From Escherichia phage PSa2, in sequence record OL770310: a stretch of 64,000 nt of DNA; one strand, given 5' to 3'. Of this stretch, positions 31,684 through 40,166 are shown one piece after another (within the stretch, counting starts at the first letter, position 1; every line of letters starts with the position of its first letter). Under the pieces are notes generated by a model, which was not told the origin of the DNA, ran no database searches, and was given only the letters and a program-made list of their open reading frames with translations. The translations under genes and the position numbers were made by a program.

Positions 31684-32661
31684 ATGAGAATACTATTTAG
31701 TGCTGATCATCATATCAAACTAGGACAAGATAAAGTTCCAAAGGAATGGCAGAAGCGTCGCTTCCTGATGCTAGGAGAACGGTTAAATGACATATTCCAT
31801 AATCATAACTGTGATCTGCATATTGCTGGTGGTGATATTCTTGATGTTGCCGACCCATCGTCGGAAGAAATAGAACTTCTTGAGCAGTTCATGTCAATAC
31901 TTGATCATCCAGGCAAGATCTTCACTGGGAACCATGAAATGTTAACTAAAACTATTTCATGCCTGTATCATTATGCAGGGGTTATTAACAAAGTAACAAA
32001 CGGAAATTGGGAAGTCATTACTAAACCATATCGTTCTCCTGAATTTGATATTATCCCTTACGATGAAATTCACAAACCAAAGTGGAAACCCTCTGAATCA
32101 AAATTATGTTTCACGCATGTTCGTGGTGAAATCCCTCCACATGTAAAACCAGAGATTGATCTAACGAGGTATAACTGTTACGACACTGTAATTGCTGGCG
32201 ATTTACATTCTTATACTAATAGTCAAACTGTTGGTTCTACTAGACTTCTTTATCCAGGATCTCCATTAACTACATCGTTCCATAGAGAACGCACAAAAGG
32301 TACAAATGGTTGTTTTATCATTGATACCGACACATTAAAAGTAGAATGGATTGAACTTGGTGACTTACCACAACTGATTCGTAAAACAATAGGAGTCGGT
32401 GAGGAAATGGAGCCTAGTGACTATGACCGTGTAATTTATGAAGTCACTGGTGACGTCGTTCAGTTAAAGTCTATTAAAGATTCCGATCTCCTAGATAAAA
32501 AGATTAACCATCGAGTTACTAAAGATGCTAAGTTAAATCTTGTCGATCTTGATATGTTAGGCGAGCTTGAGCTTTACTTCCGTGAAGTTGAAAAGCTGTC
32601 TCAAGGCGACATTGATAGAATCTTAGCTAGAGCTGCTAAATATGTCAAAGATTACAATTAA
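31684..32661 (+). CDS. SbcD/Mre11-like nuclease (calcineurin-like phosphoesterase)
   Basis: N-terminal MRILFSADHH and downstream GNHE phosphoesterase motifs; followed by an SbcC-like ATPase. Confidence 0.8.
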   Translation: MRILFSADHHIKLGQDKVPKEWQKRRFLMLGERLNDIFHNHNCDLHIAGGDILDVADPSSEEIELLEQFMSILDHPGKIFTGNHEMLTKTISCLYHYAGVINKVTNGNWEVITKPYRSPEFDIIPYDEIHKPKWKPSESKLCFTHVRGEIPPHVKPEIDLTRYNCYDTVIAGDLHSYTNSQTVGSTRLLYPGSPLTTSFHRERTKGTNGCFIIDTDTLKVEWIELGDLPQLIRKTIGVGEEMEPSDYDRVIYEVTGDVVQLKSIKDSDLLDKKINHRVTKDAKLNLVDLDMLGELELYFREVEKLSQGDIDRILARAAKYVKDYN

Positions 32662-34480
32662 GACACTAAAATTCAGCAACGTTATGTCTTACGGTAAGGA
32701 TATCGTAATTCATTTCGATAAGAATCCAGTTACTCAGTTAATTGGAGGAAATGGTCTAGGGAAGTCCACTATTGCTACTGTTATTGAGGAATTGTTTTAT
32801 AACAAGAACTCACGTGGTATCAAGAAGGACGCCCTATTCTCTTGGGGTTCTCCGAAGAAAGAGTATGATATGCACGCTTACTTCTCGAAAGATGAAGATG
32901 AGTATGAATTGCATAAAGTAGTTAAATCAACTGCTAAGGTTACGCTGATTAAGAACGGGGAAGATATCAGTGGGCACACAGCAACTCAAACGTACAAGAT
33001 GATTGAAGAGATTATGGGTGGTGACTTCCAAACATTCACTAAACTGATCTATCAATCTGTTGGTTCCAATCTAGACTTCCTCAAAGCAACTGATGCAACA
33101 CGTAAAGCTTTTCTTGTTAATCTGTTCAATCAGGAACAGTATAAAGAGATGTCAGAAACTATTAAGGCTGATCGTAAAGAAGTGGCAAGTACGTTAAGTA
33201 ACTTGCAAGGCCAGATGGCCGTAATTACGAAGATCCTCAATGGAAAAGGTAATCTCGGAAGTTTACAAGAACCAGTTGAAGTTCCAGAGTTTGATGAAGA
33301 ACCGTTAGCACAAGAACTTACTGAATCGAAAATTAAGGCGGCATTAGCCAAGTCACAAGAGGCTAATATTACTAAACTCCGTAATTTGGACAAAGCTGTA
33401 CAAGTTGCCGAACAATCTTTCGAGCCTTTCAAAAATTTCCCTGCGCCCACTGACCAATCTGAAGAGATCTCAAGTGTTACGCGTGACCTAACGATCGTTA
33501 CCTCACGTGCGGGAGAAGTCAAGAAACGTTATCAGAAGTTCAAGCAAGAGGCTTCAAATACTGAATGTCCTACTTGTGGCACTCACCTTGATACAACTGC
33601 TGCTCAAAAAGCCATGGATATGGCTAGAACAGAATATGATCCTCTGTTTAAAGAGAAACAATCTCTTGAAGCTACATTGGAGCAGTTGAAGAAAGAACAA
33701 GTCGAGTACACTGCGTATACTAGAGCTAAGGATGCTTTGGATAAGGCAGTAGCAGCTAGAGACGAATTCAAAAATTCAATGAGTGATGCTTCTTTTGAAG
33801 AACTCAATGTGCAAATCCTACAGGTGCAAATCCGACAATTAGAACAGGAAATCGCAGATGGACGTTCTAAAGTTGCAATTGCCAAAGAACATAATGCAAA
33901 TGTCGAATTAGCCAATGCAAAGTATAAAGCGAAACTAGAACAGATTGAGAAAGCTGAGGCAGAAATGTCTGAGATAACGTCCAAACTGGAAGGAGTATCA
34001 GAAGCTGTTGCTGATCTTGATATTCTGATCGCTGCATTGAAAAATCTGGTAGGATATAAACTAGAGCATAGTGTGAAAGTATTTGAGGAATTAATTAATA
34101 AATATCTTTCTATTATGACTGGTGGTAAGTTCGCACTTGGATTTGAACTTGATGAAACTAAATTACAAGTAGTAATCTTCAATGATGGAAATCGTACTAG
34201 TATGGAGAACTGCTCCACTGGTCAGCAAAGTAGAATTAATTTAGCAACTCTGTTAGCTATTCGAATGCTGTTAACATCTATCAGCAAAGTTAATATTAAT
34301 CTTCTGTTCCTTGACGAAGTTATTAGCTTTATTGATACGAAAGGACTTGATACTCTCGTTGAATTATTAAATGAGGAAGATAGTCTAAACTCTATCATTG
34401 TTTCTCATGGGCATACGCATCCATTAGCCCATAAGATTACTGTCAAAAAAGATGCAGAAGGATTTTCCTACTTAGAATAA
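32642..34480 (+). CDS. SbcC/Rad50-like ATPase
   Basis: Walker A GGNGLGKST, central coiled coil with CPTCG zinc hook, signature STGQQSRINL, Walker B LLFLDEV. Confidence 0.8.
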   Translation: MSKITIKTLKFSNVMSYGKDIVIHFDKNPVTQLIGGNGLGKSTIATVIEELFYNKNSRGIKKDALFSWGSPKKEYDMHAYFSKDEDEYELHKVVKSTAKVTLIKNGEDISGHTATQTYKMIEEIMGGDFQTFTKLIYQSVGSNLDFLKATDATRKAFLVNLFNQEQYKEMSETIKADRKEVASTLSNLQGQMAVITKILNGKGNLGSLQEPVEVPEFDEEPLAQELTESKIKAALAKSQEANITKLRNLDKAVQVAEQSFEPFKNFPAPTDQSEEISSVTRDLTIVTSRAGEVKKRYQKFKQEASNTECPTCGTHLDTTAAQKAMDMARTEYDPLFKEKQSLEATLEQLKKEQVEYTAYTRAKDALDKAVAARDEFKNSMSDASFEELNVQILQVQIRQLEQEIADGRSKVAIAKEHNANVELANAKYKAKLEQIEKAEAEMSEITSKLEGVSEAVADLDILIAALKNLVGYKLEHSVKVFEELINKYLSIMTGGKFALGFELDETKLQVVIFNDGNRTSMENCSTGQQSRINLATLLAIRMLLTSISKVNINLLFLDEVISFIDTKGLDTLVELLNEEDSLNSIIVSHGHTHPLAHKITVKKDAEGFSYLE

Positions 34481-34483
34481 AAC

Positions 34484-34966
34484 ATGGCCGTAGATAGTAG
34501 AGAGAAAGGTAAACGTGGTGAATATCAGGTAAGAGATATACTGCGTGAACGTACAGGTCTTGAGTGGGAACGTGTTCCAGGCTCTGGTGCTTTTGGCCAG
34601 AGCCATGGACTGAAGGGTGACATCTACCTCCCACCACAAAGCGGACACATTAGTAAATACTGCTTCGAAGTTAAGTGGTATAAAGATGATAACATATCAA
34701 GTAATTTATTTAACGTTGGTGAATCCACTCTAGAGAAGTGGTGGCAGCAGTGTTCCCGTGAAGGTGAACAGATGAACTCCAAACCAGCCTTAATATTCAA
34801 GAAAGACAGAGGACAGTGGTTAATTGCTTTGGATAGCTCAGACCCGATGGTTGACAACTTAATGAGTCGTACCCATATGGTGTTAAATAAGAAAGACATG
34901 GAAATCGTAATAGGGTTATTCGAACCGTGGTTACATCACGCATCTGTTGAGGACTTAATTAAATAA
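34484..34966 (+). CDS. putative PD-(D/E)xK nuclease (Holliday-junction-resolvase-like)
   Basis: KGKRGEYQVRDIL...GSGAFG...GDIYL...FEVK resembles the Hjc-type G-E...D...E-x-K motif order. Confidence 0.45.
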   Translation: MAVDSREKGKRGEYQVRDILRERTGLEWERVPGSGAFGQSHGLKGDIYLPPQSGHISKYCFEVKWYKDDNISSNLFNVGESTLEKWWQQCSREGEQMNSKPALIFKKDRGQWLIALDSSDPMVDNLMSRTHMVLNKKDMEIVIGLFEPWLHHASVEDLIK

Positions 34967-35841
34967 TGAGTAAATCCTGGGGAAAATTTATTGAAGAGGA
35001 AGAAGCTGAGCTGGCTTCTCGTCGCAACCTAATGATTGTTGACGGAACTAACTTAGGCTTCCGCTTTAAGCATAATAACAGTAAGAAACCTTTTGCTTCT
35101 AGTTATGTATCAACGATTCAATCTTTAGCGAAATCTTACTCTGCTAGAACTACGATCGTCCTTGGTGATAAAGGGAAGTCTGTGTTCCGTCTTGAACATC
35201 TTCCTGATTATAAAGGCAATCGTGATGAAAAGTATGCACAACGTACAGAAGAAGAGAAAGCTCTAGATGAGCAGTTCTTTGAGTATCTTCGTGACGCTTT
35301 CGAGTTGTGTGAAACTACATTTCCAACCTTCACTATTCGCGGTGTAGAAGCAGATGATATGGCAGCTTATATTGTTAAGCTCATTGGTCACTTATATGAT
35401 CACGTTTGGCTGATCTCTACTGATGGTGACTGGGATACTTTATTAACTGATCGAGTTTCTCGCTTCTCCTTTACCACACGTCGTGAATACCATCTTCGTG
35501 ATATGTATGAATACCATAACGTTGATGATGTTGACCAGTTTATCTCTCTGAAAGCAATCATGGGAGATCTTGGTGATAACATTCGTGGTGTTGAGGGCAT
35601 TGGTGCAAAACGTGGTTATAATATTATACGTGAATTTGGTAATGTTCTGGATATTATTGATCAACTCCCGTTGCCTGGGAAACAGAAATATATACAGAAT
35701 CTGAACGCATCGGAGGAGTTGCTTTTCCGAAACTTGATTCTGGTTGATTTACCGACCTATTGTGTAGATGCTATTGCTGCTGTAGGTCAAGACGTATTAG
35801 ATAAGTTTACGAAAGATATTTTGGAGATCGCAGGACAATGA
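34966..35841 (+). CDS. D15: flap endonuclease / 5'-3' exonuclease
   Basis: N-terminus MSKSWGKFIEEEEAE...NLMIVDGTNLGFRF matches the T5 D15 exonuclease as recalled; carboxylate clusters and H3TH region AIMGDLGDNIRGVEGIG. Confidence 0.9.
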   Translation: MSKSWGKFIEEEEAELASRRNLMIVDGTNLGFRFKHNNSKKPFASSYVSTIQSLAKSYSARTTIVLGDKGKSVFRLEHLPDYKGNRDEKYAQRTEEEKALDEQFFEYLRDAFELCETTFPTFTIRGVEADDMAAYIVKLIGHLYDHVWLISTDGDWDTLLTDRVSRFSFTTRREYHLRDMYEYHNVDDVDQFISLKAIMGDLGDNIRGVEGIGAKRGYNIIREFGNVLDIIDQLPLPGKQKYIQNLNASEELLFRNLILVDLPTYCVDAIAAVGQDVLDKFTKDILEIAGQ

Positions 35842-36284
35842 TTAAAATTAAACTAACTCATCCAGATTGCATGCCGAAGATTGGTTCTGATGATGCCGCA
35901 GGTATGGATCTGCGTGCATTCTTCGGTACTAACCTTGCAGCAGATTTACGTGCTATTGCACCAGGCAAATCCCTTATGATTGACACCGGTGTCGCGGTGG
36001 AAATTCCGCGAGGTTGGTTTGGTTTGGTAGTTCCTCGCAGCTCTTTAGGTAAGCGTAAACTGATGATCGCAAATACCGCAGGAGTAATCGACTCAGACTA
36101 CCGTGGTACTATTAAGATGAACCTGTTTAACTACGGTTCTGAAATGCAAACTCTGGAGAATTTCGAGAGACTTTGTCAGCTAGTGGTACTACCACACTAT
36201 TCAACCCATCATTTTGAAATCGTTGACGAACTAGAGGAGACTGATCGTGGAGAAGGCGGCTTTGGAAGCTCAGGAAGTAAGTAA
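35838..36284 (+). CDS. dut: dUTP diphosphatase
   Basis: dUTPase motifs GMDLRA, IDSDYRG, RGEGGFGSSG. Confidence 0.85.
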   Translation: MIKIKLTHPDCMPKIGSDDAAGMDLRAFFGTNLAADLRAIAPGKSLMIDTGVAVEIPRGWFGLVVPRSSLGKRKLMIANTAGVIDSDYRGTIKMNLFNYGSEMQTLENFERLCQLVVLPHYSTHHFEIVDELEETDRGEGGFGSSGSK

Positions 36285-36513
36285 TTTTGCAGATCCTAAT
36301 ATGATAGGAGTAGATGTAGATCAATCTAATTTTTACAAGATTGATGTTAAATACGTTGAACCTGAGAAAATAGTATTGAGAGTTGATGTATCTGGTGTAG
36401 TAGAACAGTGGGATGAAGAAGGGTTTATCGCACTTTGCACTGAATCTCAAGATCCTATGCTTAAAGCCATGCTAGCAGTATATAATTTAGGTATTATTGC
36501 AGGTAGTAGATAA
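36247..36513 (+). CDS. hypothetical protein
   Basis: 88 aa ORF overlapping the dut 3' end, followed by a strong terminator. Confidence 0.4.
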   Translation: MEKAALEAQEVSNFADPNMIGVDVDQSNFYKIDVKYVEPEKIVLRVDVSGVVEQWDEEGFIALCTESQDPMLKAMLAVYNLGIIAGSR

Positions 36514-36520
36514 CAATAAA

Positions 36521-36555
36521 CCCCAGTGGACAATCCACTGGGGTTTTCTTTTATT
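36521..36555. terminator. bidirectional rho-independent terminator at the early/late convergence point
   Basis: CCCCAGTGG-ACAAT-CCACTGGGG hairpin flanked by an A-run and TTTTCTTTTATTT. Confidence 0.75.
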
Positions 36556-36596: not shown

Positions 36597-36611
36597 TTTT
36601 TTTTTTTTTTT
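36597..36611. repeat. T15 homopolymer followed by TGCATTTTGCATTTTGCGTTTT repeat
   Basis: Direct count of 15 consecutive T at 36597..36611. Confidence 0.8.
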
Positions 36612-36792
36612 GAGAGGGTGCAAAACGAACCTCTTGCATTTTGCATTTTGCGTTTTCATATTGTACATAAGAACAGCCTAAGAATCAGTGAACTGTTAAC
36701 ATAGCAGAACACGCGTTGCGTTGCTAGGATAATCAATGTTCAGGCTTGTTTCGCAGCAATATTTTTCAGTGACAGATTGCACTCCACTTATA

Positions 36793-39744
36793 TTACGGTA
36801 GTTCTGTAATTGTTGGAGCATTTCCGTTAAGCATTGATTTTACAAGGTTTTTCAGTTCATATAACTCATTGCGTAATACGTTAATTTCCTCCTGTTGATT
36901 ATCAATCTTTGCTTTTTGCTCTTTGAATGCGTTAACAAGAAGTGCGACAACACCATTATAGTTAATGCCTTTGATTGCCTCGCCTTTTGGGTCTAGCTGA
37001 CCATCGTTATTCAAAGAATGAACCGCTTCCGGCAAAACCCTTTCAACATCTTGTGCGATCAATCCAGCCTCAATACTATAAACGCTGTTTTCATCTTCAA
37101 TTAGATTGTTGCGCTTGTAGTAAGTATAACCAGTTAGATAATCAATTTTGTCGGATGCCGTTTCGATCTCTTTTAGATGTGCTTTTAATCTAATGTCAGA
37201 CCTGCTAACCCAATTTGATGCGCTACCATTTCCAGCACTATCAAAAACAAATTCAGCGCCATTAACATAAAGATGTGTTTCAGCGCCGCCAGAAGTCCAC
37301 GGAACAACATCCATGCCAGCTATCCAATCTTTCCCCCAATAAACAGATTTAAATATGGCAACCGCAGAATCAAATCCAGTGTGCTCAACAAGCAATCCAG
37401 ACGCACGACTACGCCAGTCGGCAAATAAACCACCCTCAACTTGACCAGCAATAAGAGCGTTTGGATAACCGCGCCTAACTCCATTTACATACATACCCCT
37501 TGCGTTATCATCAACATAAGATGATATGACCCTGTAAGTGTTTATTCCTGATGGAGTCCATGCAAATATTCTCGCTGAATCAGCAAACGCGCTTATGTGA
37601 CCATCACGATCCCATTTAAGACCTGAATCATGATCCCCAATTGCTATAGAGTAATCACCAAGAGCCGATTGAGCATCCGGACTTAATAACATCAATTGCC
37701 TATCAGATCTTGCTATCCTGTACCATCCACCCCAAGAGCCAGCACTACAAATGATACCCCATTTATTACCGTTCATTGCGGTTGCAACAATATTTCCATA
37801 CTCAACATGACCGTTTGCATTTTTACCGTGAACATGCAATTCATACATCCACCAACCAGAGGCTTCAGGTGGTTGATATGTAACAAGTTCTCCGCTTGAG
37901 TAATAACCGCTTTCTGCGTATGTTGACATAAACCCAAGAATGTTTGAATTATTAGGAATAATAATTGCTTGACCACCAACAGGAGTATTTAAGTTCTTTC
38001 TTGCTCCAACTTCAGTATTAGATCCAGTGCCGCCAGCATCAATTGAAAGAGGAATCCATCTTTCAGTTTCATCAGTCCAAACACCCCACGCCGCATCAGG
38101 TCTAATTGTGATTCGATAAGGTGAGTTACTCCCTGGTGCATACATCATAGTTTCTGTTTCTGTTTGCTTTAAACGATCAATGCCAAAGTTTATTTTTGCG
38201 CCCTCAACGTTTTCAGCACCAGTACCGCCAGCACCAATAGAAAGCGCAGATGTGCTGTTATTGTCATTACGCGCAACGCGCCATTCCCCATTGTTAGCGA
38301 TCCGTAATTCATAAGTCCATGCAGGATTACGAAAAGAATTATAAGCGCCAGCATATTGATCTTTTACAGAATTAACAGCCTCAACTTTTAGCGCCTCCCT
38401 TGCAAGGTCTTTGTTTGCAAGATCATTAAGATTCTGATCCTTCTTTAACGACGCTTGCATAACCTGTTCTGCTGATGCAGCCGCTGTCTCCGCTCTATCT
38501 GCTGCACTGGTGGCATTAGTAGCTTTCTCTCCTGCTATTGTAGCGCTACCAGCGGCCTCCAGGGCCTTGTCTGTTGCTGTCGTTGCAGCAGTAGTGGCGG
38601 TATTTTTAAATACCTCTGCTTCGTCTCTGTAGCCTTTGGTTGTGGTCATCGCTTGCGTAGCTGTATTCGCACTACCTGATGCACTTTGCTGAGCTAGCTT
38701 AGCAGCGTCTTCACTAGCTTTTGAGTTAATTTCACTAGTCTTTGTATTAGTTTCTGAGTTTTTTGCTGCTAATGCTGATGTGGAGGCTTGTGCAGCGAAT
38801 GCTTCTGCTTCATCCCTGAATCCTTTGGAGTCAGAAGCAGAGGCAGCGGAATCAGCAGCATTAGTCTCACTAGTTTTTGCTGCTGCTGCATATGCTGCTG
38901 CATTAGTCTCACTAGTTTTTGCATTAGTCTCACTAGTTTTTGCATTAATCTCACTAGTTTTTGCTGCAGCTGATGATTCTATAGCAGTAGTTTCACTAAT
39001 TTTTGCTGCAGCTGATGATTCTGCAGCTTTAGTAGCGGATGCAGCAGATTGAGAAGCAGAAATAGCAGACTGAGAAGCAGAAGCTTCAGAAGCTTCAGCA
39101 GAAATAGCAGATTCATTCTCAGAATTCTTAGCATTAAGTTCTGAAGTCTTAGCAGCTATCTCGGAGTCTTTTGCAGTAGTAGCGTATTCTCCCGCCTCTG
39201 TAGCAGAACCAGCAGCAGCAATAGCCTGATTGGTAGATTCAGTAGCAGATGTAGCAGCATTTTGCTCAGAAGTAGCAGCAGCAGTCTTAGCAGCCTCAGC
39301 GTCCTTCTTAGCTTGTTCAGCTAATAGACGACTCTGTTCAGCATTTTGTGCAGCAAGTTCAGCAGAATCACGGAATCCTTTGGATTCCTCAGCTGACGTA
39401 GCAGAGGCATCAGCACTATCTTTAGATAAACCAGCTTGTCTCTCCGCTTCAGTAGCAGAAGCAGCAGATTGAGTTGCAGAAGTTTCTGAAGAGTTAGCGT
39501 AAATTGCAGCTAGGTTCTCCGAGTCCTTAGCATTTGTTTCAGATTCTTTTGCTGCAATTTCAGAATCTTTTGCTGCTGCGGCAGAAGCAGCAGAGGCCTC
39601 AACAGCCCCTGTTAGTTCACTAGCAGTAATAGAACTAATAGAAGTACCTAAAACTACCGTATACTTAGGATATTTACTAGCAGTAGTTGTAGTGTCATCT
39701 ATGTTCAGAATCTGCTGTACAATAATTTTAGTTTTAAGTGCCAT
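36793..39744 (-). CDS. side (L-shaped-type) tail fibre with C-terminal intramolecular chaperone domain
   Basis: 983 aa; Ala/Ser/Thr-rich repeats (SETNAKTSETNAK), then SRSDIRLKAHL...chaperone-like C-terminus (S74-type SDxRxK motif). Confidence 0.75.
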   Translation of the reverse strand: MALKTKIIVQQILNIDDTTTTASKYPKYTVVLGTSISSITASELTGAVEASAASAAAAKDSEIAAKESETNAKDSENLAAIYANSSETSATQSAASATEAERQAGLSKDSADASATSAEESKGFRDSAELAAQNAEQSRLLAEQAKKDAEAAKTAAATSEQNAATSATESTNQAIAAAGSATEAGEYATTAKDSEIAAKTSELNAKNSENESAISAEASEASASQSAISASQSAASATKAAESSAAAKISETTAIESSAAAKTSEINAKTSETNAKTSETNAAAYAAAAKTSETNAADSAASASDSKGFRDEAEAFAAQASTSALAAKNSETNTKTSEINSKASEDAAKLAQQSASGSANTATQAMTTTKGYRDEAEVFKNTATTAATTATDKALEAAGSATIAGEKATNATSAADRAETAAASAEQVMQASLKKDQNLNDLANKDLAREALKVEAVNSVKDQYAGAYNSFRNPAWTYELRIANNGEWRVARNDNNSTSALSIGAGGTGAENVEGAKINFGIDRLKQTETETMMYAPGSNSPYRITIRPDAAWGVWTDETERWIPLSIDAGGTGSNTEVGARKNLNTPVGGQAIIIPNNSNILGFMSTYAESGYYSSGELVTYQPPEASGWWMYELHVHGKNANGHVEYGNIVATAMNGNKWGIICSAGSWGGWYRIARSDRQLMLLSPDAQSALGDYSIAIGDHDSGLKWDRDGHISAFADSARIFAWTPSGINTYRVISSYVDDNARGMYVNGVRRGYPNALIAGQVEGGLFADWRSRASGLLVEHTGFDSAVAIFKSVYWGKDWIAGMDVVPWTSGGAETHLYVNGAEFVFDSAGNGSASNWVSRSDIRLKAHLKEIETASDKIDYLTGYTYYKRNNLIEDENSVYSIEAGLIAQDVERVLPEAVHSLNNDGQLDPKGEAIKGINYNGVVALLVNAFKEQKAKIDNQQEEINVLRNELYELKNLVKSMLNGNAPTITELP
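38858..39027. repeat. tandem 21-bp coding repeats inside tail-fibre gene
   Basis: GCATTAGTCTCACTAGTTTTT at 38858, 38900, 38921, variant 38942; adjacent duplicated TTTTGCTGCAGCTGATGATTCT. Confidence 0.8.
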
Positions 39745-40166
39745 TATTGAGTTACTCCATCGCTGATGTATACTTTACCTTCCATAATACGGAAAGAATT
39801 GACTTCAGAGCCAATTACATCACGAGTCATTAGGATATCATAATAACCAGCAAAACGTTGTCTTGGGTTATACTTATCACGTTCTTTAGATGCTTTTTCA
39901 CCAATATTAGTAGTGTCTGCAATGGAAAGACTAATTGCAGCAGCACCTTGAGCAGCATCAATAACATGAGTTTTAAAATTAGCTAGAACCTCGGCGTTCT
40001 CATCTAAACTAGATTTAATAGTTCCTCTGAGTGAATACCCTGTCAAGTTAACAGGAAATTCTGTTGGCGGATATACGCTATCATCAACATCCATAAATTG
40101 CATGATAAGACTATAAGGCACTTTCTCATCAACAACAATATCAATAACTCGGTTTTCTGTACTCAT
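39744..40166 (-). CDS. small tail structural protein (collar-type by position)
   Basis: 140 aa ORF between the fibre and baseplate genes. Confidence 0.45.

What the first reader, a model, noticed from the sequence alone, without database searches (positions are those of the whole stretch)
36793..37250. C-terminal intramolecular chaperone-like domain on the side tail fibre
The last ~150 residues (..SRSDIRLKAHLKEIE...GLIAQDVERVLPEAV...) match the SDxRxK-containing auto-cleaving chaperone domain seen at the C-terminus of several phage fibres and endosialidases. The mature fibre would then end just upstream of the Ser, and the released domain would be absent from virions.
Basis: partly seen in the sequence, partly recalled or inferred. 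Interest (0 to 1): 0.4.

Follow-up and report, generated by a model that had tools for sequence, protein, structure and literature searches.

The report
Self-cleaving chaperone domain on tail fibre

Summary
The observation and the interpretation both hold. The fibre gene lies on the minus strand (36793..39744, 983 aa). It is 99.5-99.7% identical in DNA to the lateral (L-shaped) tail fibre genes of many deposited Epseptimavirus phages, including 3-29, Seafire, EPS7 and Bas29.

Evidence for the domain:
- Residues 849-909 match Pfam PF13884 Peptidase_S74 (E 1.6e-10, 41.5 bits, cut-off 22).
- The SDIRLK motif supplies the Ser849/Lys854 dyad. Ser, Asp and Lys are present in every aligned homologue but one (one Lys-to-Arg) among the 164 best.
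- The closest solved relative by sequence is the autocleaved chaperone of Salmonella phage S16 gp37.
- The C-terminal helix (929-972) has a clean heptad pattern, as expected for the trimeric coiled coil.

By analogy with T5 (Thr1263^Ser1264) and S16 (S^SD), cleavage is predicted between Arg848 and Ser849. That gives an 88-kDa mature fibre and a discarded 15-kDa domain. Cleavage itself was not testable here.

pfam13884 has already been reported at the C-termini of T5-like Ltf proteins. Novelty: already known. Interest: low.

Side note: a decayed gene relic sits just downstream of the fibre gene.

The parts
36793..39744 (-). Lateral (L-shaped) tail fibre gene, 983 aa, 103.3 kDa precursor
   Evidence: ORF list. 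99.5-99.7% DNA identity over 100% of its length to the fibre genes of Salmonella phages 3-29, BSP22A, Seafire, EPS7 and Escherichia phage SuperGirl/Bas29, annotated tail fiber or lateral tail fiber protein. Masses.
36796..37200 (-). Intramolecular chaperone / Peptidase S74 domain, Ser849-Pro983 (135 aa, 15.2 kDa), predicted to be released by autocleavage
37183..37200 (-). SDIRLK motif: Ser849 (37198-37200) is the nucleophile and Lys854 (37183-37185) the general base. The predicted scissile bond Arg848^Ser849 lies at the 37201/37200 boundary.
   Evidence: Coordinates. Conservation S 162/162, D 162/162, R 144/163, K 162/163. Cleavage position by analogy with T5 and S16.
37018..37200 (-). Stretch matched by the Pfam Peptidase_S74 profile (residues 849-909, profile positions 1-58 of 58). 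It includes the G-x-x-A-Q-x-V-x-x-x-x-P-E-x-V block.
   Evidence: G894, A897, Q898 and P905 are at least 162/164 conserved.
36829..36960 (-). C-terminal long alpha-helix (residues 929-972) with heptad a/d positions V933 L936 F940 Q943 I947 Q950 I954 L957 L961 L964 V968 M971; predicted trimeric coiled-coil stalk of the chaperone
   Evidence: AF2 secondary structure H148-191 of the fragment, pLDDT 88-93 in this stretch. Heptad scan. In T5 the chaperone ends in a triple coiled coil.
37201..37671 (-). Distal fibre region (residues 692-848) that the chaperone is expected to fold. Residues 692-736 carry the GDxDSGLxWxxDG block shared with S16 gp37.
   Evidence: phmmer domain 1 to 6f45_A, residues 692-736 vs 20-64. 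PHROG long tail fiber distal subunit families cover 757-956. The AF2 monomer is unreliable here, pLDDT 40-60.
39124..39744 (-). N-terminal attachment region (residues 1-207), homologous to DT57C LtfA
   Evidence: phmmer to 8hqz_d, E 6.8e-64 for the whole chain, residues 1-207 vs 1-200.
39744..40166 (-). Upstream gene, 140 aa, LtfC-like collar protein that anchors the fibre (context only)
   Evidence: Pfam PF23926 LtfC, E 2.8e-15. RefSeq annotation 'collar tail protein for L-shaped tail fibre attachment'.
36518..36546 (.). Bidirectional terminator-like hairpin that closes the fibre transcription unit and the convergent dUTPase unit
   Evidence: 13-bp stem, found on both strands; 2 sites found vs 0.2 expected.

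Best explanation
The last 135 residues (Ser849-Pro983) of the 983-aa lateral tail fibre of this Epseptimavirus (T5-like) phage are a C-terminal intramolecular chaperone domain of MEROPS/Pfam family S74.

Proposed mechanism, with what is shown and what is inferred:
1. Three precursor chains are brought into register by the domain's C-terminal helices (929-972), which form a trimeric coiled coil. The helix and its heptad pattern are shown; the trimer is inferred.
2. The alpha/beta body and a short beta-hairpin (about 909-929) cradle the distal fibre and template its intertwined trimeric fold. This is inferred from T5 pb1 and K1F endosialidase.
3. Once the trimer is correctly folded, Ser849, activated by Lys854, attacks the Arg848-Ser849 peptide bond in each chain. 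The motif is shown; the chemistry is inferred.
4. The 15-kDa chaperone trimer dissociates and is not incorporated into virions. This leaves an 88-kDa mature fibre (1-848) whose tip is uncovered for receptor binding. This is inferred; in T5 the uncleaved S1264A protein cannot compete for the receptor.
For: - Pfam Peptidase_S74: E 1.6e-10, 41.5 bits vs cut-off 22, full profile coverage 1-58/58.
- Catalytic Ser and Lys and the Asp/Arg of S-D-x-R-x-K are conserved: S and D 162/162, K 162/163, R 144/163. So is the G894/A897/Q898/P905 block.
- Sequence homology to the S16 gp37 chaperone, which is cleaved experimentally (6f45_A, E 8.9e-15; cleavage site). Also to the MyRF ICA domain.
- 1,765 phage records carry the domain, mostly under fibre genes.
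- An AF2 model with pLDDT 77-93 across the domain has the expected order: helices, beta-hairpin, helix, hairpin, long C-terminal helix.
- Literature: T5 pb1 IMC structure and S1264A mutant (PMC4690869); pfam13884 reported at the C-termini of T5-like LtfA/LtfB/Ltf proteins (PMC4728585).
Against: - No experimental data for this protein or its 99% identical relatives were found; cleavage and absence from virions rest on analogy.
- The model is a monomer built from a 17-sequence alignment (mean pLDDT 69). It is poor for the pre-cleavage region, so the active-site geometry and the folding-sensor residues contributed by neighbouring chains in T5 (Arg1250, Asp1239) could not be checked.
- The residue before the Ser is Arg here, whereas Thr is commonest in relatives. 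However, Arg also occurs at this position in the aligned predicted site of T-even gp37 homologues (DVYIR^SD).
Confidence: 0.9

Rival explanations
1. The S74 domain is present but proteolytically silent. It stays attached to the mature fibre as a cap or extra distal domain and is present in virions.
For: Cleavage was not observed here. The residue preceding the Ser is Arg rather than the commonest Thr. The beta-hairpin 'tentacle' is short (about 20 residues in the model, against about 40 in T5).
Against: All residues known to be needed within the domain are intact (Ser849, Lys854, Asp850, Arg852). Arg also sits at the -1 position in the aligned predicted cleavage site of T-even gp37 homologues. 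In T5 an uncleaved chaperone blocks receptor competition, so retention would probably disable the fibre.
Confidence: 0.05
2. After autocleavage the newly exposed tip is not itself the receptor binder. Instead it docks a separately encoded adhesin, as S16 gp37 docks gp38.
For: The closest solved relative by sequence is S16 gp37, where chaperone removal exposes the gp38 docking surface. The GDxDSGLxW block upstream is shared.
Against: No gene follows the fibre gene on its strand before the terminator; there is only a decayed relic with in-frame stops. This fibre has about 110 residues between the shared block and the Ser, where S16 has about 27, which is enough for a tip domain of its own. EPS7-type phages are described as having a single fibre protein.
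Confidence: 0.04
3. The match is a chance occurrence of a short motif in a low-complexity fibre protein, and there is no real domain.
For: The N-terminal 440 residues are strongly biased (30% Ala, 15% Ser), which can inflate scores.
Against: The match lies outside the biased region and covers the full Pfam profile at E 1e-10. It extends over about 125 residues to S16 gp37 and is backed by fold matches.
Confidence: 0.01

Closest known systems
[quoted passage not shown]
Salmonella phage S16 (and T2/RB51-type) long tail fibre distal subunit gp37, C-terminal IMC (PDB 6F45 construct)
   Same: Closest solved relative by sequence: E 8.9e-15 over residues 847-971. It also shares the GDxDxGLxWxxDG block upstream. 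Identity to RB51/JS10 gp37 is about 44%. The cleavage site S^SDRRIKK aligns with R^SDIRLKA.
   Different: S16 is a myovirus, and its cleaved gp37 tip docks a separate adhesin, gp38. No such gene is present here, and about 110 rather than about 27 residues separate the shared block from the cleavage site.
Coliphage K1F endosialidase C-terminal intramolecular chaperone domain (PDB 3GW6), founding member of Peptidase S74
Myelin regulatory factor (MyRF) ICA domain (PDB 7DC3)
   Different: It is a eukaryotic membrane-bound transcription factor. Cleavage there releases a transcription factor domain, not a virion fibre.
LtfA/LtfB of T5-like phages DT57C and DT571/2
   Same: The N-terminal 207 residues are homologous to DT57C LtfA (8hqz). 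pfam13884 chaperone domains with predicted cleavage sites are reported for these proteins, and EPS7 is noted as a single-fibre relative.
   Different: Those phages have a branched two-protein fibre. This phage has one fibre gene, and its distal part differs.

Membership tests
Peptidase S74 / intramolecular chaperone of endosialidase (Pfam PF13884) | Profile match above the curated gathering score | tested here: met
   41.5 bits vs cut-off 22, E 1.6e-10, residues 849-909, profile positions 1-58/58.
Peptidase S74 / intramolecular chaperone of endosialidase (Pfam PF13884) | Catalytic Ser-Lys dyad in an S-D-x-R-x-K motif at the start of the domain | tested here: met
   S849-D850-I851-R852-L853-K854. 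S 162/162, D 162/162 and K 162/163 in aligned homologues.
Peptidase S74 / intramolecular chaperone of endosialidase (Pfam PF13884) | Located at the extreme C-terminus of a fibre or spike protein | tested here: met
   The domain ends at the stop codon. In 128 of 165 relatives no more than 20 residues follow the aligned end. PHROG hits are all tail fibre families, matched at their C-terminal ends.
Peptidase S74 / intramolecular chaperone of endosialidase (Pfam PF13884) | Fold: alpha/beta body, beta-hairpin tentacle, C-terminal helix forming a trimeric coiled coil | tested here: met
Peptidase S74 / intramolecular chaperone of endosialidase (Pfam PF13884) | Autoproteolytic release after trimer folding, and absence of the domain from virions | not testable with these tools
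   Needs virion mass spectrometry, SDS-PAGE or recombinant expression. It is shown only for T5, K1F and S16 relatives.
Peptidase S74 / intramolecular chaperone of endosialidase (Pfam PF13884) | Folding-sensor residues from the preceding domain of a neighbouring chain complete the active site (T5 Arg1250/Asp1239) | not testable with these tools
   The pre-cleavage region is modelled at pLDDT 40-60 as a monomer. No conserved Arg or Asp is evident in 830-848 across relatives.
T5 pb1-type L-shaped tail fibre (orthologue of T5 ltf) | N-terminal attachment region shared with T5-like Ltf/LtfA, and the gene placed next to the LtfC/p132-like collar gene | tested here: met
   Residues 1-207 match DT57C LtfA. 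The upstream gene is PF23926 LtfC. Synteny with the Bas29 annotation.
T5 pb1-type L-shaped tail fibre (orthologue of T5 ltf) | Distal receptor-binding domain and chaperone homologous in sequence to pb1 970-1396 | tested here: not met
   No 4uw7/4uw8 hit at E <= 10 with residues 782-983. Similarity is at fold level only. The distal module belongs to a different, gp37-like lineage.

The most novel reading that the evidence does not exclude
The chaperone here belongs to the S16/T2 gp37 lineage, in which its removal uncovers a docking surface for a separate adhesin. The most novel reading not excluded is that the cleaved tip of this siphovirus fibre likewise recruits a second, unlinked protein, or that the released 15-kDa trimer has a second role in the infected cell, rather than the tip binding the receptor directly.
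Probability: 0.04. Interest if true: 0.45.

Novelty: already known. Interest (0 to 1): 0.08.

Why it matters
It matters in three practical ways and adds nothing conceptually new.
- Annotation: the mature virion fibre should be taken as residues 1-848 (88 kDa), not 983 (103 kDa).
- Engineering: host-range swaps or recombinant receptor-binding-protein production must keep the chaperone in cis, or the fibre tip will probably not fold.
- Proteomics: the predicted cleavage follows an Arg, so a tryptic digest cannot distinguish the natural C-terminus from a tryptic one.
The domain, its mechanism and its presence on T5-like fibres are all published.

Tried and rejected
- Reading the interval on the + strand, or on the minus strand from 37250, gives only stop-rich translations. 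The frame had to be reset to the ORF.
- NCBIfam gave no hit for the fibre.
- The word-indexed protein search returned only 16 relatives, so the alignment used for structure prediction was shallow.
- I tested whether the about 250 nt downstream of the stop codon hide a gp38-like adhesin or a displaced fibre 3' end. It is instead a decayed relic of an unrelated small gene known from Tlsvirus phages, with no Pfam family.
- A search for virion proteomics on near-identical phages found only a phage with a different fibre allele.

Full report
**What is there.**
The interval 36793-37250 is the 3' end of a 983-codon ORF on the minus strand (36793..39744). The finding did not state a strand. On the + strand the interval is full of stops, and on the minus strand 37250 is one base out of frame. 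In the correct frame, SRSDIRLKAHLKEIE is residues 847-861 and GLIAQDVERVLPEAV is residues 894-908. Ser849 is encoded at 37198-37200 and Lys854 at 37183-37185.

The gene is 99.5-99.7% identical in DNA over its whole length to the fibre genes of many deposited Epseptimavirus (T5-like, Demerecviridae) phages. These include Salmonella phages 3-29, BSP22A and Seafire, and Escherichia phages EPS7 and SuperGirl/Bas29, where the gene is annotated as tail fiber or lateral tail fiber protein. The upstream gene (39744..40166) is an LtfC-like collar protein (Pfam PF23926). The first 207 residues match LtfA of phage DT57C (8hqz). The protein is therefore the lateral, L-shaped tail fibre.

**Is the domain real?**
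- Pfam-A gives Peptidase_S74 ('chaperone of endosialidase', PF13884) at residues 849-909. E is 1.6e-10 and the score 41.5 bits against a gathering score of 22, covering the whole 58-position profile.
- PHROG fibre families match through their C-terminal ends.
- Against PDB sequences, the C-terminal 202 residues hit the long tail fibre distal subunit gp37 of Salmonella phage S16 (6f45_A, E 8.9e-15, residues 847-971). They also hit the ICA domain of myelin regulatory factor (7dc3, E 0.003).
- An exhaustive HMMER search of 1.84 billion cluster representatives with residues 840-983 found 17,118 proteins at E <= 1e-3 and 195 at E <= 1e-10.
- In an alignment of the 164 best domains, Ser849 and Asp850 are invariant (162/162). 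Lys854 is 162/163 and Arg852 144/163.
- In the same alignment the second block, G894-x-x-A897-Q898 ... P905-E-x-V908, is at least 93% conserved apart from E906 (88%). The median number of residues after the aligned end is 6, so the domain is nearly always C-terminal.
- tblastn finds the domain in 1,765 of 50,697 phage records, mostly under fibre genes of T-even-like, T5-like and other phages.

**Fold.**
AlphaFold2 was run on residues 782-983 as a monomer with a 17-sequence alignment. Mean pLDDT was 69, but 77-93 across the chaperone domain. The order of elements was two short helices, a beta-hairpin, a helix, a short second hairpin and a 44-residue C-terminal helix. This is the topology described for the T5 chaperone: a loop, a hairpin with two helices and two strands, a tentacle hairpin and a coiled-coil helix (PMC4690869).
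- Foldseek agreed for 7dc3 (probability 1.00) but not significantly for 3gw6.
- The last helix has a clean heptad register: a positions are V933, F940, I947, I954, L961, V968 and d positions are L936, Q943, Q950, L957, L964, M971. This fits the trimeric coiled coil that ends the solved chaperones.

**How it most likely works.**
Shown: the domain, its catalytic motif, its position and its predicted fold.

Inferred from the characterised relatives:
1. The three C-terminal helices bring three precursor chains into register.
2. The domain templates the intertwined distal fibre.
3. After correct folding, Ser849, activated by Lys854, cleaves the Arg848-Ser849 bond.
4. The chaperone trimer then leaves.

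In T5 the cleaved bond is Thr1263-Ser1264 and the Ser departs with the chaperone. S1264A blocks cleavage, and the uncleaved protein no longer competes with phage for the receptor. In S16 the site is DLNVS^SDRRIKK, and T-even gp37 homologues align a DVYIR^SD sequence to it, that is, Arg at the -1 position as here. Predicted products are 88.2 kDa (1-848) and 15.2 kDa (849-983), from a 103.3-kDa precursor.

**Comparison with what is known.**
The domain is a regular member of S74. One point is worth noting. The fibre belongs to a T5-like phage, yet its chaperone and the block just upstream (residues 692-736) are related in sequence to the gp37 lineage of T-even-like myoviruses. Identity to RB51/JS10 gp37 is about 44%, and the S16 match is. 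T5's own chaperone is not detectable by sequence. This is the usual mosaicism of fibre genes.

Unlike S16, no adhesin gene follows, and about 110 residues rather than about 27 lie between the shared block and the cleavage site. A self-contained tip is therefore more likely than a docked adhesin.

The literature already reports pfam13884 domains with predictable cleavage sites at the C-termini of T5, DT57C and DT571/2 fibre proteins. It lists EPS7 as a single-fibre relative (PMC4728585). The database clusters of this protein carry PF13884 as a precomputed annotation. I therefore rate the finding as already known.

**What could not be tested.**
- Cleavage and absence from virions could not be tested.
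- Trimer geometry and the folding-sensor residues supplied by the neighbouring chain in T5 (Arg1250/Asp1239) could not be checked. The pre-cleavage region is poorly modelled.

**Seen in passing.**
- The 250 nt between the stop codon and a bidirectional terminator hairpin (36518-36546) are not empty.
- Positions 36618-36782 (minus strand) hold a relic, with two in-frame stops, of the gene that follows the lateral tail fibre gene in Tlsvirus phage DanielBernoulli (bas08_0030). The tblastn match is 49% identity over 55 residues, E 2e-12 for a single comparison.
- Fibre residues about 436-515 are nearly identical to the DanielBernoulli fibre. This points to exchange of fibre modules between T5-like and Tls-like siphoviruses.
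- The tiny 'tail fiber protein' ORFs annotated at this place in Bas29 sit where this relic lies. The first (126 nt, overlapping the fibre gene's 3' end) matches the 41-aa ORF 36696..36821.

**Verdict.**
Observation confirmed and interpretation supported. This is a known kind of domain in a known phage lineage, and interest is low.

Noticed in passing
window 36618-36782 (minus strand): A decayed gene relic with two in-frame stops lies directly downstream of the fibre stop codon. It is homologous to the 3' part of bas08_0030, a 236-aa 'putative sugar-binding protein' with a Gly-rich N-terminus and no Pfam family. In Tlsvirus DanielBernoulli that gene follows the lateral tail fibre gene.
   Followed up: partly
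window about 38200-38440 (fibre residues about 436-515): This stretch of the fibre (KDQNLNDLANKDLAREALKVEAVNSVKDQ...AGGTGAENV) is almost identical to the lateral tail fibre of the about 50-kb Tlsvirus DanielBernoulli, while its flanks are only distantly related. The extreme C-terminal GNAxTIxELP is also shared. This indicates recent module exchange between T5-like and Tls-like phages.
   Followed up: partly
window 36696-36821 (minus strand) and L001 6924-7203: Bas29/SuperGirl annotates two tiny ORFs (126 and 105 nt) as 'tail fiber protein' just after the fibre gene. The first overlaps the fibre gene's 3' end, as does the 41-aa ORF 36696..36821 here, which is the reading frame of the relic. They are probably annotation artefacts.
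   Followed up: partly
window 36518-36546: A perfect 13-bp stem hairpin flanked by T-runs on both strands. It is a bidirectional terminator between the convergent fibre gene and the dUTPase / 88-aa ORF unit.
   Followed up: yes
window 36597-36611: A run of 15 A on the minus strand (T15 on the + strand) in the non-coding stretch between the relic and the terminator. Its length appears to vary among relatives, since aligned lengths differ between records. Read.
   Followed up: no
window 38855-39033 and neighbouring arrays (38710-38754, 39043-39082, 39537-39586): 21- and 42-nt tandem repeats in the fibre shaft encode 7- and 14-residue repeats of the SETNAKT / AAAKTSE type. The shaft (residues 41-440) is 30% Ala, 15% Ser, 11% Thr and 11% Glu. 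RefSeq marks repeat regions here in phage faergetype.
   Followed up: partly
window 32642-36513 (+ strand): Genes convergent with the fibre gene: a 612-aa recombination nuclease subunit, a 160-aa endonuclease, a 291-aa flap endonuclease, a 148-aa dUTPase and an 88-aa ORF of unknown function. The layout matches the Bas29 annotation.
   Followed up: no
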